Virus record (IMG/VR): IMGVR_UViG_3300033074_002003
Origin: a virus
Strand: one strand, 5' to 3'
Length of the DNA stretch: 53,056 nt
Part shown: in pieces, positions 1-53,056 of the stretch
How the letters are laid out: the number at the start of each line of letters is the position of its first letter
How positions within the stretch are numbered: the stretch's first letter is position 1
Notes under the pieces: model-generated
The model's input: the letters and a program-made list of their open reading frames with translations, nothing else
Databases searched by the model: none
What the model was told of the DNA's origin: nothing
Position numbers and translations under genes: made by a program

Positions 1-38
1 GCAAGAAGCACAAGACAGTCGAGGGTGCTCCCGCACAG

Positions 39-314
39 GTGAAGCCCTCGAAGGCAGAGGTGGCAGAGGCGTTCGCCACACTTGTCCTCACGGAGGCCCG
101 CCTCGAACAGGGCGCTCGAGCCGTGATTCGTGGCGGTGGAGAGCTGACATTCGACATGAAGCTGATGGGCCCATTCATCGCGTGGGTGACAGGTGATGTT
201 CAGAAAGAGTGCGAAGCAGAACTGGAAGCGTCTTCTCTCACGTGGAAAGCAGTATCGCGTGAGGTCGTAGACGCGGCGAAGAAGTGGTACGTTTCGAAGA
301 TCGAAGGAAAGTGA
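39..314 (+). CDS. hypothetical protein (reading frame open to window edge; may be 5'-truncated)
   Basis: ORF with no in-frame stop upstream to position 3; no recognisable motif. Confidence 0.4.
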   Translation: MKPSKAEVAEAFATLVLTEARLEQGARAVIRGGGELTFDMKLMGPFIAWVTGDVQKECEAELEASSLTWKAVSREVVDAAKKWYVSKIEGK

Positions 315-320
315 GGAACA

Positions 321-878: not shown

Positions 879-887
879 GAGAAGATA

Positions 888-1817
888 ATGCAACAAGTCA
901 TCATGACGGTTGGAATTCCCGCTAGTGGGAAATCGACCTGGGCGAAGAAGTGGGTTCTCGAGTCGTCGGGCGATCGGAAGAGGATCAACCGCGACGACCT
1001 CCGTCTCATGGTGGATGCCGGTGTCTGGTCGCCTGACAACGAGAAGTTCATCCTGAAGCTTCGCGACCAGTTCGTCCTCGCCTCACTCCGCGCCGGGAAG
1101 AGCGTCGTGATCGACGACACGAACCTCAGGAGCGACAACTTCACGAAGCTCTGCACGCTGATCCGTGGCGCGGGTCTCACGGCACTCGTACTCGAGAAGA
1201 TGTTTCCTGTCGACGTCGAAGAGGCTGTCGCTCGAGACGCGAAGCGCACTCCGAACGTCGGTGAGGCCGTCGTTCGCGATATGTGGAAGAAGTTCATCGG
1301 GAAGCACGGGAAGCTCCGCGACCCGCGCACGGAGGCGATCGTCGCCGCGTTCCCGAGCAACGAGACGATCGATCGGATCGAGGGAATCAAGGATGCGATC
1401 ATCTGTGACCTCGACGGTACCCTCGCGCTCATGGGAGATCGATCGCCGTACGACGCGAGCAGGTGTGACGAGGTGGACCTTCCGAACCATCCAGTGATCG
1501 AGTGTGTGAAGGCAATGCACGAGGCGGGTCACGGCGTGATCTTCATGTCGGGGCGTGAGGACAAGGATCGTGCCGCGACAGAGAGGTTCATCTCGAAGTG
1601 GGTGAAGGGTCGGAACGGCGATGTCATTCCACACGCGCTCTTCATGAGGCCCACAGGTGACCAGCGCAAGGACAACATCGTGAAGCGCGAGCTCTTCGAC
1701 ACTTGGGTGCGTGGGAAGTACAATGTGAGGTTCTGCCTCGATGATCGCGATCAGGTCGTCGAAGGGTGGCGGGCGATGGGACTGACGTGTTTTCAGGTTC
1801 AGCCCGGCGCGTTCTGA
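888..1817 (+). CDS. pnk: polynucleotide 5'-kinase/3'-phosphatase (T4 Pnk-like)
   Basis: N-terminal P-loop 'GIPASGKST'; C-terminal HAD phosphatase motif 'ICDLDGTLA'; size 309 aa matches bifunctional Pnk. Confidence 0.8.
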   Translation: MQQVIMTVGIPASGKSTWAKKWVLESSGDRKRINRDDLRLMVDAGVWSPDNEKFILKLRDQFVLASLRAGKSVVIDDTNLRSDNFTKLCTLIRGAGLTALVLEKMFPVDVEEAVARDAKRTPNVGEAVVRDMWKKFIGKHGKLRDPRTEAIVAAFPSNETIDRIEGIKDAIICDLDGTLALMGDRSPYDASRCDEVDLPNHPVIECVKAMHEAGHGVIFMSGREDKDRAATERFISKWVKGRNGDVIPHALFMRPTGDQRKDNIVKRELFDTWVRGKYNVRFCLDDRDQVVEGWRAMGLTCFQVQPGAF

Positions 1818-8523: not shown

Positions 8524-9153
8524 ATGGGTTTCAAAGCACAGGTACTGATCGCGGATCCCCCGTGGGAATTTGACGACGAACTGAAGGCGATGCGCGACGG
8601 TACGGATCGAAGCGCAGTGTCGCAGTATCCCGTCCTGAACCTCGATGAGATTGCGAAGCTCGATGTTCGACAGTGCGTCGATACGTCTGGGTGTGTCTTG
8701 GCGCTCTGGTGTCCCAGCGTGCTGATCCCAGAGGGACTGCGTGTGATGTCGTCTTGGGGATTCAACTTCAAGGGCACGTATGTCTGGGTGAAGTCAAAGA
8801 AGACTGAGAGCGCGCTCGAGAAGATCGGGATCACGAAAGATCTCAATGACATTCTCGGGTTTGGAATGGGAAGGCTATTTCGACAGACACACGAGGTGGC
8901 TCTCATCGGAACGATGGGCAAAGTCTACGCGGGCCTCGCGAACAAGTCACAGCGGTCAGTGTGTGTCGCCGAAAACAAAGGACACTCGATCAAACCAGAT
9001 TCGCTTCACGAGAGCCTCGAGCTCATGTTTCCGGCAGCTCAGAAGCTAGAGCTGTTCGCGCGTCGCCCGAAAGACGGTTGGACGTGTATTGGCAATGAAG
9101 TGTGCGAGGGCGAAGACATTCGTGACTCGCTGAAGAGACTCGCTTCTGAATGA
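8524..9153 (+). CDS. MT-A70 family N6-adenine methyltransferase
   Basis: 'LIADPPWEFDD' DPPW catalytic motif near N-terminus, ~200 aa typical of phage MT-A70-like MTases. Confidence 0.7.
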   Translation: MGFKAQVLIADPPWEFDDELKAMRDGTDRSAVSQYPVLNLDEIAKLDVRQCVDTSGCVLALWCPSVLIPEGLRVMSSWGFNFKGTYVWVKSKKTESALEKIGITKDLNDILGFGMGRLFRQTHEVALIGTMGKVYAGLANKSQRSVCVAENKGHSIKPDSLHESLELMFPAAQKLELFARRPKDGWTCIGNEVCEGEDIRDSLKRLASE

Positions 9154-9168
9154 AAGACTCGCGCGCAG

Positions 9169-9720
9169 ATGGCAAAGTCAAAGAGAAAATTCACAGACGC
9201 TCAAAAGAGAGTGCTGCTTCTCAGCTGTAACTACGAGGTACTGAACTTCGTCTCGGACGTTCGCGCGATTCTCATGCTTACACGTGAGAAGGTGGACGTC
9301 ATCTCGCACTGGGACGATCACACTTTCAATACACCGAACGTCAAACTTCCGATTCCATCGATCATCCGTCTCAGATCGCCGATCCGTCGCAAGCACGGGC
9401 CCGTGCGGTATCACAGGATTGTAGTGTTTAGGAGAGATGGTTGGCGCTGCCAGTACTGCGGAATTACTGTCTCGAAGCGCGACGCGACCATCGATCACGT
9501 GAACCCACAGTGCAAGGGTGGGCGTACAAACTACAAGAACTGCGTCACCGCGTGTCGTGCTTGCAATCACAAGAAAGCGTTCAAGACACCCGAAGAAGTC
9601 GGAATGGCACTCATGTCAAAGCTCGAGATGCCGAACGTGCTTCACCTCTACAACATTGACGTGAGACACGGGTGGCACCCGTCATGGGACGATTTCATCG
9701 GGCACCTCAAGTCTACTTGA
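9169..9720 (+). CDS. HNH endonuclease
   Basis: 'GWRCQYCGITVSKRDATIDHVNPQCKGGRTNYKNCVTACRACNHKK' HNH/Zn-finger signature. Confidence 0.8.
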   Translation: MAKSKRKFTDAQKRVLLLSCNYEVLNFVSDVRAILMLTREKVDVISHWDDHTFNTPNVKLPIPSIIRLRSPIRRKHGPVRYHRIVVFRRDGWRCQYCGITVSKRDATIDHVNPQCKGGRTNYKNCVTACRACNHKKAFKTPEEVGMALMSKLEMPNVLHLYNIDVRHGWHPSWDDFIGHLKST

Positions 9721-11030: not shown

Positions 11031-11246
11031 ATGAAAATACACACGCGATTCATAGTTTACGTCGTGTTGGCATTTGTGTGTGCGGTGATCACAGCCGTGT
11101 CTGTCACCATTTGCATCGTTGCGCCGCACATGATGAAGCTTGTGTTCCCGTACGTCGTATTTTCGTGCGTCATCTCTGGATTTCTGATCGGAATGATCGT
11201 AACGAACATTTCGTTCATCTTCTACGGAAAGAAGAGTGATGTCTAA
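11031..11246 (+). CDS. small membrane protein (2 predicted TM helices)
   Basis: 71 aa, two hydrophobic stretches; overlaps start of next gene. Confidence 0.45.
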   Translation: MKIHTRFIVYVVLAFVCAVITAVSVTICIVAPHMMKLVFPYVVFSCVISGFLIGMIVTNISFIFYGKKSDV

Positions 11247-12219
11247 AACTGACACTAGGTCTATCGTCCTCGTCACCGGCGGCGCGGGATTTCTTGGTTC
11301 GCACATCTGTGACAGGTACAAGGACAAGTATCACGTTGTCGTCGTCGATAATTTCATGACAGGTAGGCGTGAGAACGTACCGGCGGGGTGTGAGGTCATC
11401 TCGATTGACGTCACGAGCAATCTCTTCCTCGAAGAGATGCGGATGCTGTATTACAAGCGCGATATCTCGAGGATCTTCAACTTTGCGTGTCCCGCTTCGC
11501 CACCGAAGTATCAGCTCGATCCCGTTCACACGATGATGACGTCTGTCGTCGGCACGAACAACACGCTGAAGCTTGCGCGCGATTTCGGTTCGATCTTCGT
11601 GCAAGCTTCAACGAGTGAGGTTTACGGCGATCCGGAAGTTTCTCCACAAGCAGAGTCGTATCGAGGTTGTGTCAATACGATCGGTCCCAGAGCGTGTTAC
11701 GACGAGGGCAAGCGCGCCGCCGAAGCTCTGTGCTACGACTACGCTCGAATGGGCACCAACGTGAGGGTCGCTCGAATCTTCAACACTTACGGTCCGAGAA
11801 TGGATGTCGATGACGGTCGCGTCGTCACGAATTTCGTGAAGCAGGCGCTGCTCGGCGACGACATCACGATCTACGGTGATGGTTCGCAGACACGATCGTT
11901 CTGCTATGTCAGGGACCTCATTGACGGCATCGTTGGCCTCGCTGAGACACTGAGCCCGCCTCAGCACCCCGTGAACATCGGAAATCCCACCGAGTTCACA
12001 GTTCGTGAGCTTGCAGACAAGGTGCTCGAGCTGCTACCAGAATCAAAGTCAAAGATCGTCATGTGTGATCTCCCGACTGACGATCCGAAGCAGCGCAAAC
12101 CCGACATTGGTTGTGCCGAGAAGTACCTCGGGTGGAAAGCCGGAATTAAGTTGGGTTGGGGACTGTCGATGATGATCGATTACGTTCGTGATGAACTGAA
12201 AAGGATGGGACGCCTGTGA
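11236..12219 (+). CDS. UDP-glucuronate decarboxylase (UDP-xylose synthase)-like SDR
   Basis: 'LVTGGAGFLGSHICDR' Rossmann, 'ASTSEVYGDPEVSPQAESY...GPRACYDEGKRAAEALCYDY' (YxxxK) closely matches UXS/dTDP-glucose-dehydratase-type extended SDRs. Confidence 0.7.
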   Translation: MMSKTDTRSIVLVTGGAGFLGSHICDRYKDKYHVVVVDNFMTGRRENVPAGCEVISIDVTSNLFLEEMRMLYYKRDISRIFNFACPASPPKYQLDPVHTMMTSVVGTNNTLKLARDFGSIFVQASTSEVYGDPEVSPQAESYRGCVNTIGPRACYDEGKRAAEALCYDYARMGTNVRVARIFNTYGPRMDVDDGRVVTNFVKQALLGDDITIYGDGSQTRSFCYVRDLIDGIVGLAETLSPPQHPVNIGNPTEFTVRELADKVLELLPESKSKIVMCDLPTDDPKQRKPDIGCAEKYLGWKAGIKLGWGLSMMIDYVRDELKRMGRL

Positions 12220-25169: not shown

Positions 25170-25739
25170 ATGAGCAAAGAGGAGATTTATGTGAGCGTGG
25201 ATATCGAGGCCACGGGCCCCGCTCCTGCGCTCAATTCGATGATTTCACTGGGTGCCGTTGCCTTCTACAAGGGCAAGGAGATTGCTTCGTTTGAAGCAAA
25301 CATTCGTGAGCTACCTGAGGCTACTCGCGATCCCTCGACAATGTCCTGGTGGCGAGATCACCTAGAAGCTTGGGACTACGCCCAACAAAATCAGGAGCAC
25401 CCCTCACATGTAATGTTGCGCTTCAATGATTGGGTGAAGAACCTCCCGGGCCGTCCGATCTTCCTTGCGTACCCCGCAGGATTTGATTTCACGTTCGTGT
25501 ATTGGTACTTTCACGCTTTCGTCGGGTCGTGCCCGTTCACCTTCTCAGCCATTGACATGAAGTCATACGCGATGGCTTGTCTCAAGACACCGTACAGCGA
25601 GACTGTCAAGAGAAATTTCCCGGCCGAGTGGCAGGATCCGGCGGGCGTCGTGAAGCACAATCACCACGCGGTAGATGACGCTCGGGAACAGGGTGAGATG
25701 TTCATGAGAATCATGGAGAGCAACGGACACAAATGGTAA
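25170..25739 (+). CDS. DnaQ-like 3'-5' exonuclease (DEDDh)
   Basis: Exo I 'VSVDIEATGP', Exo III 'HHAVDDA'. Confidence 0.75.
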   Translation: MSKEEIYVSVDIEATGPAPALNSMISLGAVAFYKGKEIASFEANIRELPEATRDPSTMSWWRDHLEAWDYAQQNQEHPSHVMLRFNDWVKNLPGRPIFLAYPAGFDFTFVYWYFHAFVGSCPFTFSAIDMKSYAMACLKTPYSETVKRNFPAEWQDPAGVVKHNHHAVDDAREQGEMFMRIMESNGHKW

Positions 25740-26443: not shown

Positions 26444-27319
26444 TTGTTAGACGGTGATGACACAACTGATTCATCGAACATAGTTAAAGCTATGAGCAAA
26501 TTTGTTGGTCACTTTAAGTGTGAATTTTGTCTGGAAGACTTCGAAAAAGAAGTGCATTCGAGTGCGAAGAAAATGCCACGATTTTGCAGCAAATCGTGTG
26601 GTAGCAAGTGGCTACACGCAAATGGCAAAAAGTGTACACTAAACAGCAAGACGACATACGAATGGTGGATTGAAAAACACGGACAAGAAGAAGCTGATAG
26701 ACGATTTAGTGCTTGGAGACAAAAGATCTCAGAGCGTACGTCTGGCGAAAACAATGCGATGTTTGGTAAGCACGCACACACTCACGGGTTGAAAAAATAC
26801 GCGTTCGAAAAGACGGGTAAGTCACTCGAACAGATCCATGGTGTTGAGCTAGCAAAAGATATCAAGCATAGAGTCTCAGTGAGTATGACGGGCGAAAACA
26901 ATCCTGCGTACGGGAAAGTATATCCAAATGCGGGACGATCTGTCAAGGGTCACTATAAAGGCATCTTCTTCCGAAGTCTATTTGAGTACTCGTTCTTGAA
27001 GCACCTGGAGTCAATAGGAGTCGAGTTGACAGACGTAAAGTGTGAATCGTTCAGGATTCCGTATGCTGAGGGCAGAACGTACATACCTGATTTTTATGTT
27101 CCTGAACACAAAACTGTTTACGAGGTGAAACCCTCGTCTTGGCACACTAACACAACAGTGATTGCAAAATGTGAAGCTGCAAAGAGATTTCTGGCTGAAA
27201 AGGGACTTGAGTTCAAGATGGTCACCGAGCTTGATTTCCCGAAGATACGCTTCGACGAAGCACGCAAAGATCCAAACGTAGTTTGGAAGGAGAAGTCATT
27301 TGAGCACTTCAAGAAGTAA
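26444..27319 (+). CDS. free-standing homing-endonuclease-like protein (Zn finger + PD-(D/E)XK), paralog of 23134..23946
   Basis: 'FKCEFCLEDF...RFCSKSCGSKW'; 'RTYIPDFYVPEHKTVYEVKPSSW'; AT-rich island. Confidence 0.55.
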   Translation: MLDGDDTTDSSNIVKAMSKFVGHFKCEFCLEDFEKEVHSSAKKMPRFCSKSCGSKWLHANGKKCTLNSKTTYEWWIEKHGQEEADRRFSAWRQKISERTSGENNAMFGKHAHTHGLKKYAFEKTGKSLEQIHGVELAKDIKHRVSVSMTGENNPAYGKVYPNAGRSVKGHYKGIFFRSLFEYSFLKHLESIGVELTDVKCESFRIPYAEGRTYIPDFYVPEHKTVYEVKPSSWHTNTTVIAKCEAAKRFLAEKGLEFKMVTELDFPKIRFDEARKDPNVVWKEKSFEHFKK

Positions 27320-27848: not shown

Positions 27849-28089
27849 CGAGGGCGACGCAGACTCTGGGATGAGGGAAGCACTTGAGATGTGCTTCAAC
27901 ATGGCATATGGGACGGCGATCGATATCGCTGAGAAGCAACCGGGCGTGAGCGCGCTCTACGTCGAATCGCAGGCGAAGACTGTGATGCGCGCCGCGCTTC
28001 AGGCGACGGGTCTCTTCTCGCCGAGCGAGATCGACATGCACGTTGATTCGATCACCGTGAGAAATGCTGCAGAGAGGGATTCGTCGTGA
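27808..28089 (+). CDS. hypothetical protein
   Basis: 93-aa ORF overlapping kinase 3' end; weak. Confidence 0.25.
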   Translation: MRFSPRSKDGQMTDEGDADSGMREALEMCFNMAYGTAIDIAEKQPGVSALYVESQAKTVMRAALQATGLFSPSEIDMHVDSITVRNAAERDSS

Positions 28090-28940
28090 GCGAATACGTC
28101 AGGTCACAAGACGCGTGCGCTTTCATTGAGTCGTTGGAGGACGCGTCTGTCGGTCTTGTCCTGATTGACCCGCCGTACTACGGCATCGTTGACGATTCGT
28201 GGGACAACCAGTGGGCGTCAGAGGACGACTACGTGAGCTGGCTGTCTGTCATGTGTTACGCCGCGCGAAAGAAGCTGACGCCGACCGGATCGCTGCTCGT
28301 ATTCGGCGGTGTTGGGAAGCACGGTTCGCACCCGTTCTTCAGGGTCATTTCGGAGCTTGAGAAGAAGTTCCACTTTCGCAACCTGATCACGTGGAAGAAG
28401 AGGCGTGCCTACGGGAAGAAGTTCAACTATCTTCATTGTCGGGAGGAAATTGTTTGGTATTCCAAATCAAGTGTAGAGTCAGAAGTGACTTTTAACATTC
28501 CATATCTCACTGAAAAGCGCGGGTATGCAGGATTTAACAAGAAATATCCAGCGAAAAGTCCCTATTATCGAGTCTCTAACGTCTGGGCAGATATTGGCGA
28601 ACTAATGCGTCCCAAGCGTACTGCTGAAAAACCCATACCCCTTCTGGAGAGGTTGATACTCACACATTCAAATCCCAATGATCTTGTTGTTGATTTTTTT
28701 GCAGGGACGGGCTCCACGGGCGTGGCGGCACTGAAGAACGGTCGCAGATTTCTTGGCTGTGATATGGACAACACTGCTGTACAAATGGCAAATGCGCGCT
28801 GCATTTCTGTTTACGATTCAACTAGTTATCATCATGGCGCGAACACAGAAGACAGTAATTTATGTGTATCTGATCCTATGCAAGATCAACAACAAGAGAT
28901 ATGTGGGGATCACTGCAAAAACAGTACAGAAAAGATTTAA
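28086..28940 (+). CDS. DNA methyltransferase, beta-class (DPPY first; N6-adenine or N4-cytosine)
   Basis: 'LVLIDPPYYG' motif IV near N-terminus, 'VVDFFAGTGSTG' motif I near C-terminus; 3' ~35 codons overlap the GIY-YIG gene. Confidence 0.7.
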   Translation: MSEYVRSQDACAFIESLEDASVGLVLIDPPYYGIVDDSWDNQWASEDDYVSWLSVMCYAARKKLTPTGSLLVFGGVGKHGSHPFFRVISELEKKFHFRNLITWKKRRAYGKKFNYLHCREEIVWYSKSSVESEVTFNIPYLTEKRGYAGFNKKYPAKSPYYRVSNVWADIGELMRPKRTAEKPIPLLERLILTHSNPNDLVVDFFAGTGSTGVAALKNGRRFLGCDMDNTAVQMANARCISVYDSTSYHHGANTEDSNLCVSDPMQDQQQEICGDHCKNSTEKI

Positions 28941-29655
28941 GCGTCACCTACGTGACGCTGCGAACGGGTGTCAAAACGCACTGCATCGAGCGATACGAGC
29001 ACATGGAGTTGAGAATTTCGAGTGTCAATCGCTCGAAATTTGTTCGTCTTGGGAAGAAGCCTGTCAACGTGAAATAGTGTTGATTCGTGAACTTCAAACA
29101 CGTGTCGAACAACACGGTTACAACATGACTGACGGAGGCGAAGGGGGATGGGGATTGCAGTGGTCGCTAGAAGCTCGAGCAAGACAGAGTGCTATTCACA
29201 AAGGGTTACACACTCGAGATAAGCTGAGCTCTGAAACGTTGAAGAAGATGAGTGATGCTCGAAAAGGTAAACCGATGAACGATGAGCAAAAACGAAAACT
29301 TTCGATCTGGAACACTGGTCGCAAACACACTGAAGAAGCTAAGCAAAAGATGGCTGATTCACATCGTGGCTCTAAACGCACAGAAGCTACGAAACAGAGA
29401 ATGCATGAAAGCAGTCCACACAAAAAACGTGTTGTGCAATTTGCTACTGATGGAACGACATTGTCTGTGTACCCATCTATGAAAATTGCTGCGCGTATCA
29501 CAGGCGTTGCACACGCAAATATTAGTGCATGCTGTCATGGCAGGAGACCACGCGCTGGTGGATTTGGATGGTGCTTTGAAAATATCAATACACTGACTGA
29601 GCAAGTCATAGAATTAGTCAATTCGAGGTGTGTGGAAGCTGCGGGAGGTGCGTGA
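28834..29655 (+). CDS. GIY-YIG homing endonuclease with NUMOD3-like repeats and C-terminal DNA-binding module
   Basis: 'VIYVYLILCKINNKRYVGITAK' GIY-YIG; repeats 'SETLKKMSDARKGKP / DEQKRKLSIWNTGRKHT / EEAKQKMADSHRGSKRT'; 'VVQFATDGTTLSVYPSMKIAARITG'; AT-rich. Confidence 0.75.
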   Translation: MARTQKTVIYVYLILCKINNKRYVGITAKTVQKRFKRHLRDAANGCQNALHRAIRAHGVENFECQSLEICSSWEEACQREIVLIRELQTRVEQHGYNMTDGGEGGWGLQWSLEARARQSAIHKGLHTRDKLSSETLKKMSDARKGKPMNDEQKRKLSIWNTGRKHTEEAKQKMADSHRGSKRTEATKQRMHESSPHKKRVVQFATDGTTLSVYPSMKIAARITGVAHANISACCHGRRPRAGGFGWCFENINTLTEQVIELVNSRCVEAAGGA

Positions 29656-30593
29656 TGTCAAAGAAGGCGTGGGTCACCGGCGGCGCCGGTTTCATTGGAA
29701 GTCACCTCGTCGATCGCCTCGTGCGGGAGAACTATGACGAGGTGATCGTTGTCGATGATTTCTCGAGCGGAGATCCCAAGAATCTCGCGAAGAGTCACGG
29801 GCTGGTGAGGCTCTACACCGAGGATTTTGCCTCTGATAGGACGTTGAAGCTCCTCGCAGAAGAGAAGCCAGACGTGGTATTTCACCTCGCCGCTCGGCCT
29901 CGCGTTGCTTACTCCGTCGAACACCCGGCGGAGACGAACGAGGTGAACGTGCAGAAGTCATTGCGTCTCCTCGAGGCGTGCCGCGACGCGCACGTAAGGA
30001 GATTTGTCTTCTCGTCATCTTCGTCTGTTTATGGCGGTGCAGACGAGCTACCGACGCCAGAAGAGTATCCGAAGGATCCGAAATCACCCTACGCGCTCCA
30101 GAAGTCGGTGATCGAGGACTACTGTCGGATGTTCTCGTCGCTCTACGACATGGACACTGTCTGCCTGCGATACTTCAACGTGTTCGGTCCCAGGGCAAAG
30201 GGCGACGGCGCGTACGCGACTGCAGTCAGCGCCTGGATCTCAGCGATCAAGTCTGGGAAGCCCGCGCGGTCCGACGGAGACGGTACGCAATCGCGTGACA
30301 TGTGCTACGTCGCGAATGTCGTTGACGCAAACATTCGCGCAGCACAGTCATCGTATGATTTTGTCGGTGACACGTTCAATGTTGCGTGTCAAGACAAGGT
30401 GACAAACAACGAGATCCTCGAGTACCTGAAGAAGAAGTTTGACTTCTCGATTGTTCACGCTCCGGAGAGGTTGGGTGACGTGAAGCACACGTGCGCTGAC
30501 ATTACCAGGGCAAAGATGATCCTGGGCTACTATCCCATGATTCGTTTCTGGGACGGGCTTGCTATGACACTCGAGGCAGAGGGGCTCAAGTGA
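29655..30593 (+). CDS. NAD-dependent nucleotide-sugar epimerase/dehydratase (GalE/WbpP-like)
   Basis: GGGAGGTG SD; 'AWVTGGAGFIGSHLVDRL', 'SSSSSVYG', 'SPYALQK' (YxxxK); ATGA overlap with HEG stop. Confidence 0.7.
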   Translation: MSKKAWVTGGAGFIGSHLVDRLVRENYDEVIVVDDFSSGDPKNLAKSHGLVRLYTEDFASDRTLKLLAEEKPDVVFHLAARPRVAYSVEHPAETNEVNVQKSLRLLEACRDAHVRRFVFSSSSSVYGGADELPTPEEYPKDPKSPYALQKSVIEDYCRMFSSLYDMDTVCLRYFNVFGPRAKGDGAYATAVSAWISAIKSGKPARSDGDGTQSRDMCYVANVVDANIRAAQSSYDFVGDTFNVACQDKVTNNEILEYLKKKFDFSIVHAPERLGDVKHTCADITRAKMILGYYPMIRFWDGLAMTLEAEGLK

Positions 30594-50140: not shown

Positions 50141-50182
50141 GGTGCTATTCAGTGGTCAGACGTGAACTGGCGAGAGAAAAGA

Positions 50183-51571
50183 ATGTCCGAAAATACGGAA
50201 ACCGCAGTCCGCACCAAGAAGAACAATTTCAGGAAGTGGCTCTCGAAGGCAGAGAGTGCCTTTGAGCGTGCGTCGCAGATCGCAGACATCCTGCACAAGT
50301 GCGCCAAAGAGCCGACGCCGTTCCTCGTGGCGAAAACGACCTTCGACCTGGCCAATGTCGCACAGGCGATGTTCCTCCTGAACTACTACGAGTTCTTCCA
50401 GGGCTGGTCGTCGCCCTACAGCGAGGACTACAACTATGCGATCACCGAGATCCTGAAGAGGATTCCCTACACCGAGCGGGCGGTCTCCGACCAGAACCTC
50501 TCTCTCCGTAAGGTCCTCCTCGAGGTGAACGGTCAGGAGTTCGAGCTCTACTACTGCATCAACGTGGAGCACGAATCCATCGAGGGTATCCACGTCCAGA
50601 ACGAAAATCTCGAGCTGGCCCGTGAGTTCATCAAGCGCGCCTTCTGGGAGAAGTTCGGGGGCGAGTTCCTCCTGATGCACAAGAAGAAGATCGTCGAGCA
50701 CGGTCGCGAGATCGGAGACTTCCTTGTTTTCGATCCCGACAACGACGTCTTCCCACACACGAGCAACCTCGCCGCGAACCTCGCGAAGAAGACGAAGAGG
50801 TTCGTAGAGGGAGGCGTCTCGCGCTCTATCCTCCTGTACGGGCCGCCCGGGACCGGAAAGTCCACGATGGTGAGGGCCATCGTCCGCGAGCTGAAGATGA
50901 CGTCCCTGCGCATTCGCGTGGAGGACCTCGAGGACATGTCGAACGCGACGATCTTCGAGGCGATCAAGATCTTCAATCCAGAGTGCATCATCATCGATGA
51001 CCTCGATCGCATCGGACGCGTGGGGGCGATCCTCGAGACCCTCGAGCGCCTCAACAAGAAGCTGAAGCTCGTATTTGCGACGGTGAATGACAAGGACATG
51101 CTCGGTGCCGCTGTCCTGCGTCCCGGTCGCTTTGACGAGGTGATCGAGATCAGCGACATGGATCCCGAGACTGTCACCAAGATCCTCGGCTCCGAGGAGG
51201 ATGCTCGCGTCGTAGAGCTTCTGAGGAAGTGGCCCGTCGCGTACATCATCGAGTACGTGAAGCGCAGGACCTACATGTCGAGGGTCGACGCGCTCAACGA
51301 CCTCGCCGAGCTTCACCTCCGCGTCACCGAGCTCGATTCTGGAAACTACGACACGCCCGCAGAAGCCGCCGCGGCGCGTGAGGAGTGCGAGGCGATGCTG
51401 AAGAAGATCAGCGACCTCGTTGATGAGACGGGTGAGAAGTCTACCCACGCCGCTTTCACGCTTCCCAAGGCACCCGCAAAGCCGAAGAAGAAGCTCACGA
51501 GGAGGGCACCACTGAAGGCGCCCACTCCCCCGCACGTGTCGAAGTCGAAGGTGAGCAGAAAAAAGAAGTAG
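50183..51571 (+). CDS. AAA+ ATPase (classic AAA clade)
   Basis: Walker A 'GPPGTGKST', Walker B 'IIIDDLD', second region of homology 'VLRPGRFDEVIEI'. Confidence 0.75.
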   Translation: MSENTETAVRTKKNNFRKWLSKAESAFERASQIADILHKCAKEPTPFLVAKTTFDLANVAQAMFLLNYYEFFQGWSSPYSEDYNYAITEILKRIPYTERAVSDQNLSLRKVLLEVNGQEFELYYCINVEHESIEGIHVQNENLELAREFIKRAFWEKFGGEFLLMHKKKIVEHGREIGDFLVFDPDNDVFPHTSNLAANLAKKTKRFVEGGVSRSILLYGPPGTGKSTMVRAIVRELKMTSLRIRVEDLEDMSNATIFEAIKIFNPECIIIDDLDRIGRVGAILETLERLNKKLKLVFATVNDKDMLGAAVLRPGRFDEVIEISDMDPETVTKILGSEEDARVVELLRKWPVAYIIEYVKRRTYMSRVDALNDLAELHLRVTELDSGNYDTPAEAAAAREECEAMLKKISDLVDETGEKSTHAAFTLPKAPAKPKKKLTRRAPLKAPTPPHVSKSKVSRKKK

Positions 51572-51893
51572 AAAAAGTTGAAACATTCACACGGTACCTG
51601 ATATCTTATTCTTACTGAGCGACGTGGTGTCGTTCACAGGTGAGAGGAAGAACGAAGATGACAACCGCGGGAGGACAGCAAGTGAAACAGCTGAATCGCG
51701 GAAGTGATCTGCGCGCCGACTCCCGCCGATCAGGTACGTGTGATAGCGCTCTCGGGCACGGTAATAAGCCACAGTCGGAAATTCCGGCTGCGGAACTTAC
51801 AACCGCCTCCTGAAGAGACAACGCGCGTGCCCCGATCGGATCAGTAGAAGAACCCTCGAGCACGCGCCGGAGGGAGAGGTTCTTGTTGTAATC

Positions 51894-51967
51894 GGACGCG
51901 TGGTGTCAATGGTCAGCACAATCGACTCTTAATCGATTAAGTGCGAGTTCGAATCTCGCCGCGTCCA
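51894..51967 (+). tRNA. tRNA-Lys (anticodon CTT)
   Basis: hand-folded cloverleaf: acceptor GGACGCG/CGCGTCC, D GTGT/GCAC, anticodon stem ATCGA/TCGAT loop CTCTTAA, T-arm GCGAG-TTCGAAT-CTCGC. Confidence 0.8.
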
Positions 51968-51982
51968 CGTGTGATACAGTTT

Positions 51983-52055
51983 CGGTGCATAGAACAAAGG
52001 TTAAGTTCGCCTCTCTGATACGGAGGAAATTTGGGTTCGAGTCCCAGTGCACCGA
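51983..52055 (+). tRNA. tRNA-Ile (anticodon GAT)
   Basis: acceptor CGGTGCA/TGCACCG, D GAAC/GTTC, anticodon stem CCTCT/GGAGG loop CTGATAC, T-arm TTGGG-TTCGAGT-CCCAG. Confidence 0.75.
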
Positions 52056-52103
52056 CCGAAGAACACCCAGCTGTTCTCTCGATCTTTGACAGTCCGTCTT
52101 TTC

Positions 52104-52142
52104 TCGCATCGCGCGCGCCCCCCAAGGGTTCTCGCGATGCGA
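52104..52142. repeat. 10-bp perfect stem hairpin (TCGCATCGCG ... CGCGATGCGA, 19-nt GC-rich loop) between tRNA genes
   Basis: read directly. Confidence 0.5.
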
Positions 52143-52146
52143 ACTT

Positions 52147-52219
52147 GCGCGAGTAGCTCAATAGTAGAGCGGTCTCCTTTGGAGGGGGCAGGTAGGATGG
52201 GCAGAACATCCCTCGCGCG
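52147..52219 (+). ncRNA. tRNA-like element 1 (canonical acceptor and D-arm; aberrant anticodon region CTCC-TTT-GGAG; non-canonical T-loop GGCAGAA)
   Basis: acceptor GCGCGAG/CTCGCGC, D-arm TAGCTCAATAGTAGAGC; no 5-bp/7-nt anticodon arm can be drawn. Confidence 0.4.
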
Positions 52220-52286
52220 CCCGTGATCAGCGAGACGATCGAGCGCCTCGTGAGTGGAGACGTTTCGCGTCTTCCGATCACGACAC

Positions 52287-52357
52287 GTATCGCTAGCTCA
52301 AGAGAAGAGCGCGCCCCTTTCAGGGCGTGATAGAGTGTGCAAATCCTCTGCGATACA
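52287..52357 (+). ncRNA. tRNA-like element 2 (paralog of element 1; anticodon region CGCCC-CTTTCA-GGGCG with 6-nt loop)
   Basis: acceptor GTATCGC/GCGATAC, D-arm TAGCTCAAGAGAAGAGC; T region AGAG-TGTGCAAATC-CTCT non-canonical. Confidence 0.4.
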
Positions 52358-52362
52358 CGAAC

Positions 52363-52433
52363 GGGTCCTTAGTTTATCGGAAGAACGCTGTGCCGCTAGC
52401 GCAGAGGCGAAGGTTCGAGCCCTTCAGGACCCT
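52363..52433 (+). tRNA. tRNA with anticodon loop CCGCTAG (GCT if standard register, i.e. Ser-type anticodon without long variable arm, C at position 33)
   Basis: acceptor GGGTCCT/AGGACCC, D GTTT/GAAC, anticodon stem CTGTG/CGCAG, T-arm GAAGG-TTCGAGC-CCTTC. Confidence 0.5.
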
Positions 52434-52487
52434 CCGAGATCGAAGTGTTGTATCGACAGACAGTCGCGCGCCACACGCTCTCTCATT

Positions 52488-52562
52488 GCACCACTATGAT
52501 TAATTGGTTAGATGGCTTGCCTCTCAAGCAGGAGGAGCTCGGTTCGAATCCGGCGTGGTGCA
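52488..52562 (+). tRNA. tRNA-Glu-like (anticodon CTC), irregular D-arm
   Basis: acceptor GCACCAC/GTGGTGC, anticodon stem CTTGC/GCAGG loop CTCTCAA, T-loop TTCGAAT; D-stem could not be paired cleanly. Confidence 0.45.
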
Positions 52563-52653
52563 CAAAGTTTCTCATTACTCTGTGGTGTATCAGACGCACA
52601 TGAGGTCCACAAGCCCCTCGGAGACCACGTGCAAATCGTGGCAGAGTAACCAT

Positions 52654-52725
52654 GGTGACGTAGCCTAGCGGTCAGGCAGCGAGTTGTCTACTCGCCCAAC
52701 GCCGGTTCGAATCCGGTCGTCATCG
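52654..52725 (+). tRNA. tRNA-Asp-like (anticodon GTC; T at position 37)
   Basis: acceptor GGTGACG/CGTCATC, D GCCT/AGGC, anticodon stem GCGAG/CTCGC loop TTGTCTA, T-arm GCCGG-TTCGAAT-CCGGT. Confidence 0.55.
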
Positions 52726-52848
52726 CAATCGAGCACCGAGAGGTGTGAGATCAGTTCCCCACAAGGGAAACATTCGGGCCTGGTGTATTGAGCAACACGC
52801 GTCCACTTTGGAGGACGAGAGTCACGAGCATAGCGTGGGGCCTGAGCC

Positions 52849-52920
52849 GGGGAGGTAGTGTACGGGCGCACAGCGATCTATTGGTGATCGACGGAGCTGG
52901 TTCAATTCCAGCCCTCCCCC
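52849..52920 (+). ncRNA. tRNA-like gene (anticodon loop TATTGGT: TTG/Gln-type but A at position 33)
   Basis: acceptor GGGGAGG/CCTCCCC, T-arm GCTGG-TTCAATT-CCAGC, anticodon stem CGATC/GATCG. Confidence 0.4.
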
Positions 52921-52933
52921 TGAAACGCGATAC

Positions 52934-53005
52934 TGGGAGATGGTCTAGTGGCATGATACTTCACTCTGAATGAAGCTGGTGCGGGTTCGAGTCCCGCTCT
53001 CCCAT
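52934..53005 (+). tRNA. tRNA-Gln (anticodon CTG)
   Basis: acceptor TGGGAGA/TCTCCCA, anticodon stem CTTCA/TGAAG loop CTCTGAA, T-arm GCGGG-TTCGAGT-CCCGC. Confidence 0.7.
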
Positions 53006-53056
53006 CTGCCTGCTCGGCGCAGAGAGCTGTAGACACCTTGACAACAATGTGGTGTG

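What the first reader, a model, noticed from the sequence alone, without database searches (positions are those of the whole stretch)
51894..53005. tRNA cluster in which most members have non-canonical anticodon arms
Only Lys(CTT), Ile(GAT) and Gln(CTG) fold as textbook cloverleaves. Others have C33 (loop CCGCTAG; a one-nt register shift would present CTA, an amber-reading anticodon), A33 (loop TATTGGT), U37 (loop TTGTCTA) or an unpaired D-stem (the Glu-like gene). This many deviations in one cluster suggests either decayed pseudo-tRNAs or deliberately unusual decoding/decoy tRNAs.
Basis: seen in the sequence. Interest (0 to 1): 0.6.

Follow-up and report, generated by a model that had tools for sequence, protein, structure and literature searches.

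The report
Phage tRNA array, odd anticodon arms
This is the first 1.1 kb of a roughly 30-gene tRNA array in an uncultured large phage; many of its tRNA-shaped genes keep a well-paired cloverleaf body but carry inherited, non-standard or fast-changing anticodon arms, most likely as part of a conflict with bacterial enzymes that cut tRNAs.

Summary
ARAGORN and Infernal reproduce the hand-read loops: C33 (CCGCUAG), A33 (UAUUGGU), U37 (UUGUCUA) and the weak D stem. They add four more odd tRNA-like genes with 6-nt or 8-nt loops.

The window cuts off an array of at least 24 tRNAs that follows an AAA ATPase. Seven related uncultured phage lineages have the same array in the same order.

The oddities are mostly not decay:
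- tRNA-Asp has no A37 in any of six lineages, and 13 of 20 stem pairs show compensatory change.
- Element e3 belongs to a phage family of tRNA-shaped RNAs with a fixed alternative elbow (A19-U56, G55) and a freely variable anticodon arm.
- Between near-identical strains, substitutions pile up in the anticodon arms of e3, e4 and e5 (33% against 1.8% in spacers), and pairing is kept.

The same genome carries an RlaP, RNA ligase and Pnkp repair cassette.

TAG is an ordinary stop codon here, so the amber-suppressor idea is not supported.

My best reading is a mix of normal decoders, nuclease-evading decoders and non-decoding tRNA-like RNAs. It is a new variant of a known kind. Function is inferred, not shown.

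The parts
51894..51968 (+). tRNA-Lys(CUU), canonical loop CUCUUAA
   Evidence: ARAGORN. Rfam tRNA 63.4 bits. Identical in L009. The L017 allele carries the alternative G55/A18 elbow.
51983..52057 (+). tRNA-Ile(GAU), canonical loop CUGAUAC
   Evidence: ARAGORN. Rfam 58.4 bits. Orthologues in 6 lineages, 16 of 17 stem pairs compensatory.
52147..52219 (+). e3: a tRNA-shaped RNA of the 'special elbow' family. Its anticodon arm (52172-52189) is either an 8-nt loop CUUUGGAG or a 7-bp helix with a UUUG tetraloop. T loop GGCAGAA.
   Evidence: Rfam 34.3 bits. Minimum-free-energy cloverleaf with z = -3.98. Family covariation. Three different arm alleles in near-identical strains.
52287..52358 (+). e4: tRNA-like with the 6-nt loop CUUUCA, T loop UGCAAAU (G55) and D loop AAGAGAA (no GG)
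   Evidence: Rfam 36.6 bits. Fold z = -3.7. L017 keeps a 6-nt loop AUUUCA with the closing pair changed from C-G to U-A; L009 has a wholly different arm. IMG/VR locus L048 at 12197 has the same architecture.
52363..52435 (+). e5: class-I tRNA called 'Ser GCU', loop CCGCUAG (C33). It derives from a Cys-like tRNA.
   Evidence: ARAGORN, and Rfam 53.3 bits. The L017 allele is Cys GCA with loop CAGCAAA (A33), the same loop as in distant L008. Genes at the same syntenic position in 5 lineages all have non-canonical loops and 99% paired stems.
52488..52563 (+). e6: tRNA-Glu(CUC) with a canonical loop CUCUCAA but a weak D stem and acceptor junction
   Evidence: Rfam 25.6 bits, below the gathering score of 29. 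Found by ARAGORN only at the lowered threshold. Fold z = -0.9. Orthologues elsewhere score 52-62 bits.
52576..52652 (+). e7: weak tRNA-like candidate with 8-nt loop CCACAAGC, T loop UGCAAAU and an encoded ACCA end
   Evidence: ARAGORN at -ps80/85 only. No Rfam hit. Fold z = -1.0. 5.5% divergent from L009, where the loop is CUACAAGC.
52654..52726 (+). e8: tRNA-Asp(GUC), loop UUGUCUA (U37), discriminator G73
   Evidence: ARAGORN, and Rfam 53.4 bits. Six-lineage alignment A3: 99.2% of cells paired, 13 of 20 pairs compensatory, position 37 is U or G and never A. Its 5' 45 nt are replaced by an ORF insertion in L009, and it is absent in L001.
52774..52848 (+). e9: weak tRNA-like candidate with a 5-bp stem, 8-nt loop ACUUUGGA and T loop AGCAUAG
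   Evidence: ARAGORN at the lowered threshold only. No Rfam hit. The minimum-free-energy fold is not a cloverleaf.
52849..52920 (+). e10: tRNA-Gln(UUG)-like, loop UAUUGGU (A33), with G1-C72
   Evidence: ARAGORN, and Rfam 37.7 bits. The fold gives a 5-bp stem and 7-nt loop. Same loop in L009. The Gln UUG genes of L007 and L012 have U33.
52934..53006 (+). tRNA-Gln(CUG), canonical loop CUCUGAA
   Evidence: ARAGORN, and Rfam 61.5 bits. Eleven differences from L009 in the D arm and anticodon stem, compensatory, with the loop unchanged.
50183..51571 (+). AAA+ ATPase gene that marks the upstream boundary of the array in all related lineages
   Evidence: PHROG and Pfam AAA hits. Homologues at 48-97% identity lead to syntenic arrays.
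888..1817 (+). Polynucleotide kinase-phosphatase (Pnkp), the RNA-end 'healing' enzyme; context for tRNA repair
   Evidence: Pfam HAD_PNKP 1.7e-51 plus AAA_33. Full-length match to PDB 4xrp Pnkp1 (6e-49) and to T4 Pnk 1ltq (7e-37).
1..314 (+). 3' end of an RNA ligase gene (PF09414). RlaP (PF10127) lies just upstream of the window.
   Evidence: Contigs L021 and L022 carry RlaP, RNA ligase, a 185-aa ORF and Pnkp in that order. Window 3-314 translates to the ligase C-terminus.

Best explanation
The interval is the promoter-proximal end of a large tRNA array on one strand. The array holds at least 24 ARAGORN-default genes plus sub-threshold ones and spans about 9 kb, interspersed with small ORFs and homing-endonuclease genes. 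It belongs to a clade of uncultured large phages, with contigs up to 210 kb.

The array holds three kinds of gene.

1. Ordinary decoders for the phage's most-used codons: Lys CUU, Ile GAU, Glu CUC, Gln CUG.

2. Decoders whose anticodon is kept but whose flanking loop positions are altered and inherited: Asp with U37, Gln UUG with A33, the Cys-derived gene with C33, and further downstream Gly GCC with C33. I infer that these remain usable in translation, and that they were selected because the change removes the recognition or cleavage site of host nucleases that cut the anticodon arm.

3. tRNA-shaped RNAs whose acceptor, D and T arms are under strong structural selection, while the anticodon arm is free to vary in sequence and length (e3, e4, perhaps e7 and e9). 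Some arms are zipped hairpins that cannot decode. I infer that these act through the tRNA body, for example as uncleavable competitors or decoys for tRNA-targeting enzymes. Alternatively they are intermediates in rapid arm turnover.

Shown: the genes, their folds, their inheritance and covariation, the clustering of substitutions in the arms, and the RNA-repair genes in the same genome.

Inferred: expression, aminoacylation, nuclease resistance and decoy action.
For: Array and synteny. The same gene order occurs in L002 and in L007, L008, L009, L011, L012, L013 and L014, reached through ATPase homologues of 48-97% identity.

Structural selection on the odd genes.
- Asp: 99.2% of cells paired, 13 of 20 pairs compensatory, covariation score 0.66 against 0.23 in shuffles (0 of 500 as high). 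GUC, U33 and A38 are invariant, and position 37 is U or G.
- Stem analysis of Gly GCC, the e5 family and the special-elbow (oddT) family gives figures equal to the canonical families.
- e3 family: 98.6% paired, 13 of 17 pairs compensatory including all 7 acceptor pairs, score 0.62 against 0.16, and the tertiary 19:56 pair switches between A-U and G-C.
- The arms of that family range from a canonical Lys UUU loop to 8-nt loops, a 10-bp stem and a GUAA-capped hairpin.

Recurrent changes at positions 33 and 37 with the anticodon kept, seen in Leu GAG, Gly GCC, Pro UGG and Asp across lineages.

Excess over reference phages. Aberrant loops are 24 of 119 against 3 of 72 (p = 0.002).

Arm-limited divergence between near-identical strains. 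In e3-e5 the arms differ at 17 of 51 positions, against 12 of 670 in spacers (p = 5e-14). Stems change in a compensatory way and alleles assort independently.

Repair cassette. RlaP, RNA ligase and Pnkp lie in the same genome. From established knowledge, T4 Pnkp with Rnl1 reseals tRNA-Lys cut by PrrC.

Literature.
- Phage tRNAs are proposed to carry loop mutations that evade VapC, PrrC and colicins (PMC10264068).
- T5 tRNA-Lys resists PARIS AriB through two anticodon-stem substitutions. AriB also contacts the D loop, and the authors raise an inhibitor role for viral tRNAs (PMC12409363).

Codon match. The canonical array tRNAs read the phage's preferred codons.
Against: - There is no expression, processing, charging or cleavage data.
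- The host and its tRNAs and nucleases are unknown, so no loop change can be mapped to a known cleavage site.
- U33 and a purine at 37 matter for decoding, so the variants may be poor decoders.
- Asp, Gln UUG, Gln CUG and others are missing or disrupted in strains L001 and L009, so they are dispensable.
- Mosaic replacement also hits tRNA bodies: the 3' half of Lys in L017, and the Gln CUG stems in L009. Arm clustering could therefore reflect recombination rather than selection on the arm.
- e6, e7 and e9 score poorly and show no sign of constraint.
- The tested enrichment of aberrant loops among UUN anticodons was not significant (p = 0.14).
- C33 and 6-nt-loop 'tRNA-OTHER' genes also occur sporadically in cultured phages, without any known function.
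- Structures come largely from ARAGORN, which favours paired solutions.
Confidence: 0.5

Rival explanations
1. Decay. The odd members are duplicated or redundant tRNA genes on their way to loss in a fast-turnover accessory region. Their deviations are neutral damage.
For: - Low or absent tRNA-model scores for e6 (25.6 bits), e7 and e9, and unremarkable fold z-scores.
- The window-lineage e5 anticodon GCU differs from the Cys GCA of its L017 allele. L009 adds a mismatch in the e5 stem.
- Whole blocks are deleted or disrupted in L001 and L009.
- The T5 record annotates a pseudo-tRNA in its array.
- Loop lengths of 5-10 nt in the e3 family look unconstrained.
Against: - Stems of Asp, Gly GCC, the e3 family and the e5 family stay 98-100% paired, with as many compensatory changes as the canonical tRNAs, across lineages whose neighbouring protein is only 48-66% identical.
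- The same odd loop recurs in distant lineages: UUGUCUA in the window and L007, CAGCAAA in L017 and L008, ACGCCAU in L002 and L012.
- The 6-nt loop of e4 is kept while its closing pair changes from C-G to U-A.
- e3 and e4 are the most stable cloverleaves of the set.
Confidence: 0.2
2. Homing-endonuclease-driven mosaicism. Free-standing HNH, GIY-YIG and endonuclease-I-like genes in the array cleave tRNA-gene targets in co-infecting relatives. The hypervariable segments would then be conversion tracts or cleavage-resistant target-site variants, unrelated to tRNA function.
For: - Endonuclease genes differ between strains inside the array: HNH inserted in L004, GIY-YIG with NUMOD3 in L002, an endonuclease-I-like ORF replacing the 5' half of Asp in L009, and HNH_2 (weak) in L009.
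- Sharp-edged replaced segments also affect the 3' half of Lys and the Gln CUG stems.
- Alleles of e3 and e4 assort independently.
- From established knowledge, T4 SegB and the T5 HNH enzymes act in tRNA gene regions. The T5 array record lists several HNH genes.
Against: - It does not explain why replaced arms always keep base pairing.
- It does not explain why particular array positions are non-canonical in every lineage.
- It does not explain why the e3 family keeps an invariant elbow with a free arm in unrelated phages that have no shared endonuclease context.
- No donor copies of the alternative arms were found in the sampled DNA.
- This rival can coexist with the main explanation, as the mechanism that spreads variants.
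Confidence: 0.15
3. Non-translational tRNA-like roles. The conserved-body, free-arm RNAs would serve as RNase P/Z processing punctuation for the small ORFs, as amino-acid donors for a non-ribosomal transferase, or as regulators.
For: - The body is conserved and the arm is free.
- Some members carry an encoded CCA end: e7, L023 and L048.
- Small ORFs are interleaved with the tRNAs.
- The T5 record lists tRNA-like stable RNAs of unknown function.
- A non-decoding pseudo-tRNA with a phenotype exists in Bacillus cereus (PMC3399842).
Against: - No transferase, T-box or similar partner was found in the window or flanks.
- Punctuation would not require an invariant special elbow.
- Members with a canonical Lys UUU loop and A73 look like real decoders.
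Confidence: 0.1
4. Suppressor or recoding tRNA. The CCGCUAG loop would present CUA after a register shift and read amber codons in a recoded phage.
For: Stop-codon recoding with suppressor tRNAs is known in some large phages (established knowledge). A gene at the same syntenic position in L011 has anticodon UUA with A33.
Against: - TAG terminates 15 of 61 ORFs in the window.
- Coding density under the standard code is 74%, and rises only to 78.5% with TAG read as sense. Long genes such as the 1199-aa polymerase are uninterrupted.
- A shifted reading would leave G at position 33 and only one 3' loop base.
- The L017 allele is Cys GCA.
Confidence: 0.03

Closest known systems
tRNA gene region of coliphage T5 (NC_005859)
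   Same: Tandem same-strand tRNA genes interleaved with small ORFs and HNH homing-endonuclease genes. It includes an annotated pseudo-tRNA and several 'tRNA-like stable RNAs with unknown functions'. Deletion variants that lack parts of the array are viable (PMC12409363).
   Different: All 22 genuine T5 tRNAs have U33, a purine at 37 and U55. No sequence similarity to the window. No special-elbow family. Arm-limited hypervariability has not been described there.
Nuclease-evading phage tRNAs: mycobacteriophage cluster C1 and the hypothesis of van den Berg et al. 2023 (PMC10264068)
   Same: A large array of about 30 tRNAs, with anticodon-loop substitutions flanking an unchanged anticodon. Bxz1 itself has two C33 tRNA-Val genes, Asp with G37 and a 'tRNA-OTHER'.
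   Different: The deviations here are more frequent (20% against about 4%) and more extreme: A33, U37, and 6-nt or 8-nt loops. They come with an alternative elbow. The host and its nucleases are unknown, so the defining comparison with host tRNAs cannot be made.
T5 tRNA-Lys(UUU) variant that resists the PARIS nuclease AriB (PMC12409363)
   Same: Resistance comes from substitutions in the anticodon stem. AriB also reads the D loop, and the authors raise the idea that viral tRNAs act as competitive inhibitors. The special-elbow family includes members with a canonical Lys UUU loop and A73.
   Different: No PARIS system or trigger is known for this phage. The family changes the D-loop/T-loop elbow rather than two stem bases. 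In the window lineage the arm no longer carries UUU.
T4 Pnkp with Rnl1 tRNA repair against the PrrC anticodon nuclease; bacterial Pnkp1-Rnl-Hen1 repair
   Same: The window encodes a full-length Pnkp homologue next to an RNA ligase and RlaP.
   Different: The ligase is of the PF09414 type, not T4 Rnl1. The substrates are unknown. The cassette lies about 50 kb from the array.
'tRNA-OTHER' genes annotated in cultured actinophages (Microbacterium phage Fregley gene 63; Bxz1 gt155), and Bacillus cereus tRNA-Other
   Same: A well-formed cloverleaf with a non-standard anticodon loop: Fregley has the 6-nt loop CGAUAU. The B. cereus pseudo-tRNA does not function in translation yet has a phenotype (PMC3399842).
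   Different: Those are single genes with a normal GG/UUC elbow. There is no evidence there of family-wide covariation with a free arm, and no sequence similarity to the elements here.

Membership tests
tRNA (Rfam RF00005) | Cloverleaf scoring at or above the curated gathering score (29 bits) | tested here: met
   Eight genes in the interval score 34.3-63.4 bits. e6 scores 25.6, and e7 and e9 get no hit.
tRNA (canonical elongator) | A 7-nt anticodon loop with U33 and a purine at 37 | tested here: not met
   Not met by e3 (8-nt loop or zipped arm), e4 (6 nt), e5 (C33), e8 (U37), e10 (A33), e7 or e9 (8 nt). Met by Lys, Ile, Glu CUC and Gln CUG.
tRNA (canonical elongator) | G18G19 in the D loop pairing with U55 and C56 in the T loop | tested here: not met
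   Not met by e3, e4, e7 or e9. Across the clade, 14 of 119 tRNAs have G55 and all 14 lack GG (p = 2e-14). Position 19:56 switches between G-C and A-U.
Phage tRNA array | Many same-strand tRNA genes in tandem, interleaved with small ORFs and homing endonucleases, in a phage genome | tested here: met
   At least 24 default ARAGORN genes over about 9 kb in L002. HNH and GIY-YIG genes lie inside the array. The surrounding genes are phage replication genes.
Nuclease-evading phage tRNA (van den Berg model) | Anticodon conserved while the flanking loop or stem positions differ | tested here: met
   Asp, Gly GCC, Leu GAG and Pro UGG keep their anticodon across lineages while positions 33 and 37 change.
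Nuclease-evading phage tRNA (van den Berg model) | The change lies at the recognition or cleavage site of a tRNase present in the host and differs from the host tRNA | not testable with these tools
   The host is unknown. No similar cultured phage exists. The genome-collection hits were chance matches.
Nuclease-evading phage tRNA (van den Berg model) | The tRNA is expressed, charged and resistant to cleavage | not testable with these tools
   This needs tRNA-seq and biochemical assays.
Suppressor tRNA of a recoded phage | Anticodon CUA, UCA or UUA at positions 34-36, and in-frame stop codons in phage genes | tested here: not met
   The anticodon is GCU at positions 34-36. TAG is used as a stop in 15 of 61 ORFs, and there is no gain in coding with TAG read as sense.
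tRNA pseudogene | Loss of structural constraint: unpaired stems, no compensatory change, and a rate like the spacers | tested here: not met
   Not met for e3, e5 and e8. Inconclusive for e4, which has only close alleles, and for e6, e7 and e9.
Diversity-generating retroelement target | Adenine-specific substitutions relative to a template repeat, with a reverse transcriptase nearby | tested here: not met
   The arm differences involve all four bases. No second copy of any arm was found. No RT appears among the scanned ORFs.
T4-type RNA repair (Pnkp plus RNA ligase) | A bifunctional kinase and HAD-phosphatase protein encoded next to an RNA ligase | tested here: met
   Pfam AAA_33 and HAD_PNKP, PDB matches 1ltq and 4xrp, and the neighbouring PF09414 ligase and RlaP. 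Activity on tRNA was not tested.

The most novel reading that the evidence does not exclude
A family of tRNA-shaped RNAs exists that has so far been seen only in phage contigs. Its members have an invariant alternative elbow: a D loop AGYAACA with no GG, a T loop UGUAAGU, and tertiary pairs A19-U56 and A18/G55. Their anticodon arm is a freely exchangeable cassette.

The archetype would be a nuclease-proof tRNA-Lys(UUU). In the window clade the family, together with neighbouring genes, would have become non-decoding decoys. Their arms would diversify rapidly between strains to bind and block host nucleases that cut the anticodon arm. That would make it an RNA-based anti-defence system acting alongside an RNA-repair cassette.
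Probability: 0.2. Interest if true: 0.85.

Novelty: new variant of a known kind. Interest (0 to 1): 0.62.

Why it matters
Why phages carry tRNA genes has been debated for some fifty years. The current leading idea is that they replace or shield tRNAs attacked by bacterial immune nucleases, and it rests on a few model phages.

This array offers a natural experiment:
- the same tRNA positions in related phages carry alternative loops, arms and elbows while the rest of the molecule is held constant
- near-identical strains differ almost only in anticodon arms
- the genome also encodes RNA healing and sealing enzymes

If the odd members are resistant decoders or decoys, they point to which tRNA surfaces (position 33, position 37, the anticodon stem, the elbow) are read by unknown defence nucleases. 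They would also give ready-made variant sets for testing PrrC-, AriB-, Schlafen- or VapC-type enzymes.

If they turn out to be inert, the array still shows that tRNA finders over-call function in phage arrays.

Tried and rejected
- **Similarity to cultured phages.** Neither 'near' nor 'distant' DNA search matched the cluster. The polymerase is at most 28% identical to any phage in the collection.
- **IMG/VR.** Searches with the ATPase and with the e5 arm found nothing.
- **Introns.** ARAGORN's intron mode gave only spurious overlapping calls.
- **Amber-suppressor or recoding reading.** Rejected on stop-codon usage and coding density.
- **Diversity-generating retroelement.** Rejected: the changes are not adenine-specific and there is no template copy.
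- **Intragenomic gene-conversion donors.** None were found for the alternative arms.
- **Aberrant loops concentrated in UUN anticodons (Lys, Glu, Gln).** Not significant on conservative calls (3 of 7 against 21 of 112, p = 0.14). I keep it only as a lead.
- **Host inference.** The special T-arm pattern hit 14 genomes in GTDB, all outside any tRNA context, which is about the number expected by chance.
- **Special elbow in cultured phages.** blastn hits were normal-elbow tRNAs (phiCbK tRNA-Phe, a Stenotrophomonas phage tRNA-Ile) or a 6-nt-loop tRNA-OTHER with a normal elbow.
- **L015.** This 325-kb contig, whose ATPase is 39% identical, has no array after the ATPase.
- **Promoters and terminators.** The scan gave nothing above the shuffled expectation.
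- **Literature on G55/A18 elbows.** Searches found no description.


Full report
**1. What is there**

ARAGORN at its default threshold finds six tRNA genes on the + strand between 51894 and 53006.

| Gene | Coordinates | Anticodon loop | Rfam tRNA bits |
|---|---|---|---|
| Lys CUU | 51894-51968 | CUCUUAA | 63.4 |
| Ile GAU | 51983-52057 | CUGAUAC | 58.4 |
| 'Ser' GCU (e5), short variable arm | 52363-52435 | CCGCUAG (C33) | 53.3 |
| Asp GUC (e8) | 52654-52726 | UUGUCUA (U37) | 53.4 |
| Gln UUG (e10) | 52849-52920 | UAUUGGU (A33) | 37.7 |
| Gln CUG | 52934-53006 | CUCUGAA | 61.5 |

All six exceed the Rfam gathering score of 29 bits. The same search adds three more tRNA-like genes:
- e3 (52147-52219, 34.3 bits), with an oversized loop and the T loop GGCAGAA
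- e4 (52287-52357, 36.6 bits), with the 6-nt loop CUUUCA and the T loop UGCAAAU
- the Glu CUC gene with a weak D stem (e6, 25.6 bits, below the gathering score)

Lowering ARAGORN's threshold adds two weak candidates with 8-nt loops: e7 (52576-52652, which ends in an encoded ACCA) and e9 (52774-52848).

Single-sequence folding gives cloverleaves for most of them. e3 (z = -3.98) and e4 (z = -3.7) are the most stable. In e3 the anticodon arm zips into a 7-bp helix with a UUUG tetraloop, which could not present an anticodon.

For e10, Infernal offers an alternative register with a 9-nt loop that keeps U33. The perfect 5-bp stem with a 7-nt loop and A33 is the thermodynamic optimum.

**2. Is it real, and is it more than chance?**

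An exact-protein look-up with the upstream AAA ATPase (window 50183-51571) found the same locus in independent ENA, JGI and Logan assemblies, L001-L006. The window differs from L002 at 10 positions over 2.9 kb, and only two of these lie downstream of the ATPase gene, one in tRNA-Ile and one in a spacer. Assembly error is excluded.

I ran ARAGORN in the same way on three cultured tRNA-rich phages. Loops that are not 7 nt long, lack U33 or have a pyrimidine at position 37 number:
- 0 of 22 genuine tRNAs in T5
- 2 of 26 in Bxz1
- 1 of 24 in phiCbK

In the window, 5 of 9 Rfam-supported genes are aberrant (Fisher p = 2e-4).

**3. Context**

The window is phage DNA. It carries:
- a Pol III alpha-like polymerase, a helicase and the ATPase
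- ClpP, DNA methylases, thymidylate synthase, thymidine kinase and several homing-endonuclease genes

The polymerase is at most 28% identical to any phage in the reference collection, so this is an uncultured clade.

The window ends inside the array. In L002 the tRNA genes continue for about 9 kb: 24 default ARAGORN calls and 29 + strand calls downstream of the ATPase at a relaxed threshold. They are interspersed with small ORFs, a GIY-YIG/NUMOD3 gene and, in some strains, HNH genes.

The standard genetic code gives dense coding. Of 61 ORFs, 41 stop at TGA, 15 at TAG and 5 at TAA. The canonical array tRNAs read the phage's preferred codons AAG, GAG, CAG, GAC, ATC, CTC and ACG.

At the other end of the window lies a full-length polynucleotide kinase-phosphatase (888-1817). 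It matches Pfam HAD_PNKP at 1.7e-51, Pnkp1 (PDB 4xrp) at 6e-49 and T4 Pnk (1ltq) at 7e-37. The first 314 bases of the window are the end of an RNA ligase gene (PF09414). RlaP (PF10127) precedes it just outside the window. From established knowledge, T4 Pnkp with an RNA ligase reseals tRNA cut by the PrrC anticodon nuclease. This cassette shows that the lineage invests in RNA-break repair.

**4. Relatives and inheritance of the odd features**

Homologues of the ATPase at 97, 66, 66, 63, 63, 61 and 48% identity led to loci L009, L013, L014, L008, L011, L007 and L012. All carry an array directly after the ATPase, in a largely shared order: Lys CUU, Ile GAU, an odd tRNA-like element, a short Cys-like tRNA, Glu CUC, Asp, Gln, Gln, Pro, Pro, Leu, Leu, Thr, Thr, Ile UAU, Gly GCC, Gly UCC, Asn and so on.

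- **Asp.** Six lineages align with 99.2% of stem cells paired and 13 of 20 pairs changed on both sides. The covariation score is 0.66 against 0.23 in shuffles and at most 0.12 for slid controls. GUC, U33 and A38 are invariant. Position 37 is U (window, L007) or G (the other four), never A. G37 in Asp also occurs in Bxz1 and phiCbK, so only U37 is peculiar.
- **Gly GCC.** It has C33 in L002, L009, L012 and L007 and U33 in L008 and L011, with fully paired, covarying stems.
- **Leu GAG and Pro UGG.** They vary at positions 33 or 37 in several lineages while keeping their anticodons.
- **e5.** In a 90%-identical strain (L017) the same gene body carries the arm CUGCC-CAGCAAA-GGCAG, which is Cys GCA with A33. 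Distant L008 has the same loop. At the same syntenic position L007 has CGCAAG, L011 has CAUUAAG and L014 has AUUUAA. No lineage has a canonical loop there, yet 99% of stem cells pair.

Over seven non-redundant lineages, 24 of 119 default calls have aberrant loops. Among 7-nt loops, position 33 is U in 103, C in 8, A in 3 and G in 1; position 37 is A in 91, G in 15, U in 5 and C in 4. The three reference phages give 3 of 72 (p = 0.002).

**5. A family with a special elbow and a free anticodon arm**

The element after Ile GAU in L007, L008, L011, L013 and L014 shares a D arm GUAGCUCAG(Y)AACAGAGC with no GG, and a T arm ending in the loop UGUAANU. e3 aligns with these elements.
- Alignment A2: 99.3% paired and 9 of 17 pairs compensatory. 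The tertiary 19:56 pair switches between G-C (e3) and A-U.
- Pattern scans of IMG/VR found six more members in unrelated phage contigs (L023, L042, L043, L047, and two in L048). The 14 hits in bacterial and archaeal genomes were all outside any tRNA context, and about as many as chance predicts.
- With 13 members and the arm removed: 98.6% of cells pair, 13 of 17 pairs are compensatory (all seven acceptor pairs), and the covariation score is 0.62 against 0.16.

The arm itself takes many forms:
- a canonical Lys UUU loop with A73 (L047, L048)
- an 8-nt loop (L048, L011)
- a Phe-like loop (L042)
- a 10-bp stem (L043)
- a long hairpin with a GUAA tetraloop (L023) or with a UUUU loop (L008)
- loops with A33 or C37 (L013, L007)
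- in the window, the zipped e3 arm

L047 carries both a normal-elbow and a special-elbow Lys UUU.

More broadly, 14 of 119 tRNAs in the clade have G55. All 14 lack GG in the D loop, whereas 100 of the 105 tRNAs with U55 have it (p = 2e-14). None of the 72 reference-phage tRNAs has G55. The same tRNA can switch elbow type between strains, as Lys CUU does between the window and L017. e4 has the G55/C56 version with a 6-nt loop. L048 at 12197 has the same architecture.

**6. Arm-limited divergence between near-identical strains**

Window against L009:
- spacers differ at 12 of 670 positions
- Lys, Ile and Glu are identical
- e3 differs at 9 positions, 7 of them within the arm at 52172-52189
- e4 differs at 14 positions, 11 of them in the block 52311-52329 and 9 within the arm proper (52312-52327)
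- the stems change in a compensatory way, for example CGCCC/GGGCG to CACCC/GGGUG

Three e3 arm alleles exist: the window type, ACUGUAU with C33 (L001 and L009), and AAUGUAA with A33 (L017). There are also three e4 alleles. L017 keeps a 6-nt loop while its closing pair changes from C-G to U-A. L001 combines the second e3 allele with the window's e4 allele.

Summed over e3-e5, arms differ at 17 of 51 positions against 12 of 670 in spacers (p = 5e-14) and 8 of 167 in the rest of those genes. The L017 comparison gives 16 of 51 against 12 of 226. No donor copy of any alternative arm was found.

Two cautions apply. Replaced segments are not confined to arms: the 3' half of Lys differs in L017, and the stems of Gln CUG differ in L009. 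Strain-specific endonuclease genes and indels are common: an insertion removes the 5' 45 nt of Asp in L009, and L001 lacks the block from e7 to Pro UGG. Recombination is clearly at work; whether selection on the arm also acts is inferred.

**7. Interpretation**

Shown:
- The genes exist and their odd features are heritable.
- Their stems are under the same structural constraint as the canonical tRNAs.
- A special-elbow family with a free arm exists in phages.
- Arm variation is concentrated and structure-preserving.
- RNA-repair genes sit in the same genome.

Inferred: the array mixes ordinary decoders, decoders altered at nuclease-exposed positions, and tRNA-shaped RNAs that act through their body.

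This fits current ideas from the literature:
- Phage tRNAs are proposed to carry loop mutations that evade host tRNases (PMC10264068).
- T5 tRNA-Lys escapes AriB through anticodon-stem changes. AriB also reads the D loop, and the authors raise the possibility that viral tRNAs act as inhibitors (PMC12409363).
- Bacterial Schlafen nucleases cut the anticodon arm (PMC13056530).

Against this reading:
- There are no expression or biochemical data, and the host is unknown.
- Several members are dispensable.
- e6, e7 and e9 may simply be decaying.
- Endonuclease-driven mosaicism could produce much of the pattern.

**8. Comparison and novelty**

Arrays with interleaved endonuclease genes, pseudo-tRNAs and tRNA-like RNAs are known from T5. 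C33 tRNAs and 'tRNA-OTHER' genes with 6-nt loops occur sporadically in cultured phages. Loop-mutation evasion is a published hypothesis.

As far as these tools and searches show, the following are new:
- the density and heritability of the deviations
- the A18/G55 and A19-U56 elbow class
- the family with an invariant elbow and an exchangeable arm
- the arm-limited divergence between strains

I rate the finding a new variant of a known kind, with moderate to high interest.

Noticed in passing
window 1-1817 (RNA ligase 3' end 1-314, 185-aa ORF 321-878, Pnkp 888-1817); L021 7339-10930: An RNA repair cassette, RlaP (PF10127), RNA ligase (PF09414), an unknown 185-aa ORF and Pnkp, lies about 50 kb upstream of the tRNA array. 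The window starts inside the ligase gene.
   Followed up: yes
L002, L007, L008, L011-L014 arrays; window e4 52287-52358 and e7 52576-52652: T-loop position 55 is G in 14 of 119 tRNAs of the clade. All 14 lack the D-loop GG, having AG instead, or AA when position 56 is U. This is a tertiary covariation that defines an alternative elbow. It is absent from T5, Bxz1 and phiCbK (0 of 72).
   Followed up: yes
L009 6970-7725; L004 5705-6436; L002 15952-16605; window 9169-9720, 26444-27319, 28753-29655: There are many free-standing homing-endonuclease-like genes (HNH, GIY-YIG/NUMOD, TnsA-like/endonuclease-I-like). Those inside the array differ between near-identical strains, and one insertion removes the 5' half of tRNA-Asp in L009.
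   Followed up: partly
L002 20072-20142; L009 15508-15578; L007 20398-20467: Downstream of the window lies an otherwise textbook tRNA (60 bits, A73) with a 6-nt loop, AUUUUG in L002 and L009 and AUUUAG in L007. It is conserved with compensatory stem changes and may be a Lys UUU derivative.
   Followed up: partly
L011 7508-7578: The gene at the syntenic position of e5 has the loop CAUUAAG, that is anticodon UUA (ochre-reading) with A33. I did not check whether that lineage recodes TAA.
   Followed up: no
L007 15394-16572: An IS605 OrfB/TnpB-like (Cas12f-like) gene sits inside the tRNA array of the 210-kb relative.
   Followed up: no
window 25170-25739: An RNase T / Rv2179c-like 3'-5' exoribonuclease gene, which could trim tRNA 3' trailers. 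Most array tRNAs lack an encoded CCA.
   Followed up: no
L021 604-4254 and L022 1027-4254 against L020 38-2758: The ribonucleotide reductase large-subunit gene carries an intein with an HNH domain in some strains and not in another.
   Followed up: no
window 11236-12219 and 29628-30593; 8524-9153; 28086-28940: There are two NAD-dependent sugar epimerase/dehydratase genes, an MT-A70 methyltransferase and an N6/N4 DNA methylase. These suggest nucleotide-sugar or DNA modification functions.
   Followed up: no
window 50156-51586, minus strand: A 476-aa ORF runs antisense across the whole ATPase gene. It has no PHROG family match and is probably a by-product of G+C-rich coding sequence.
   Followed up: partly
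L050 1458-1531 (Microbacterium phage Fregley gene 63); L018 437-510 (Bxz1 gt155): Cultured actinophages carry annotated 'tRNA-OTHER' genes. Fregley's is a good cloverleaf with the 6-nt loop CGAUAU. Bxz1's has a CUA anticodon.
   Followed up: partly
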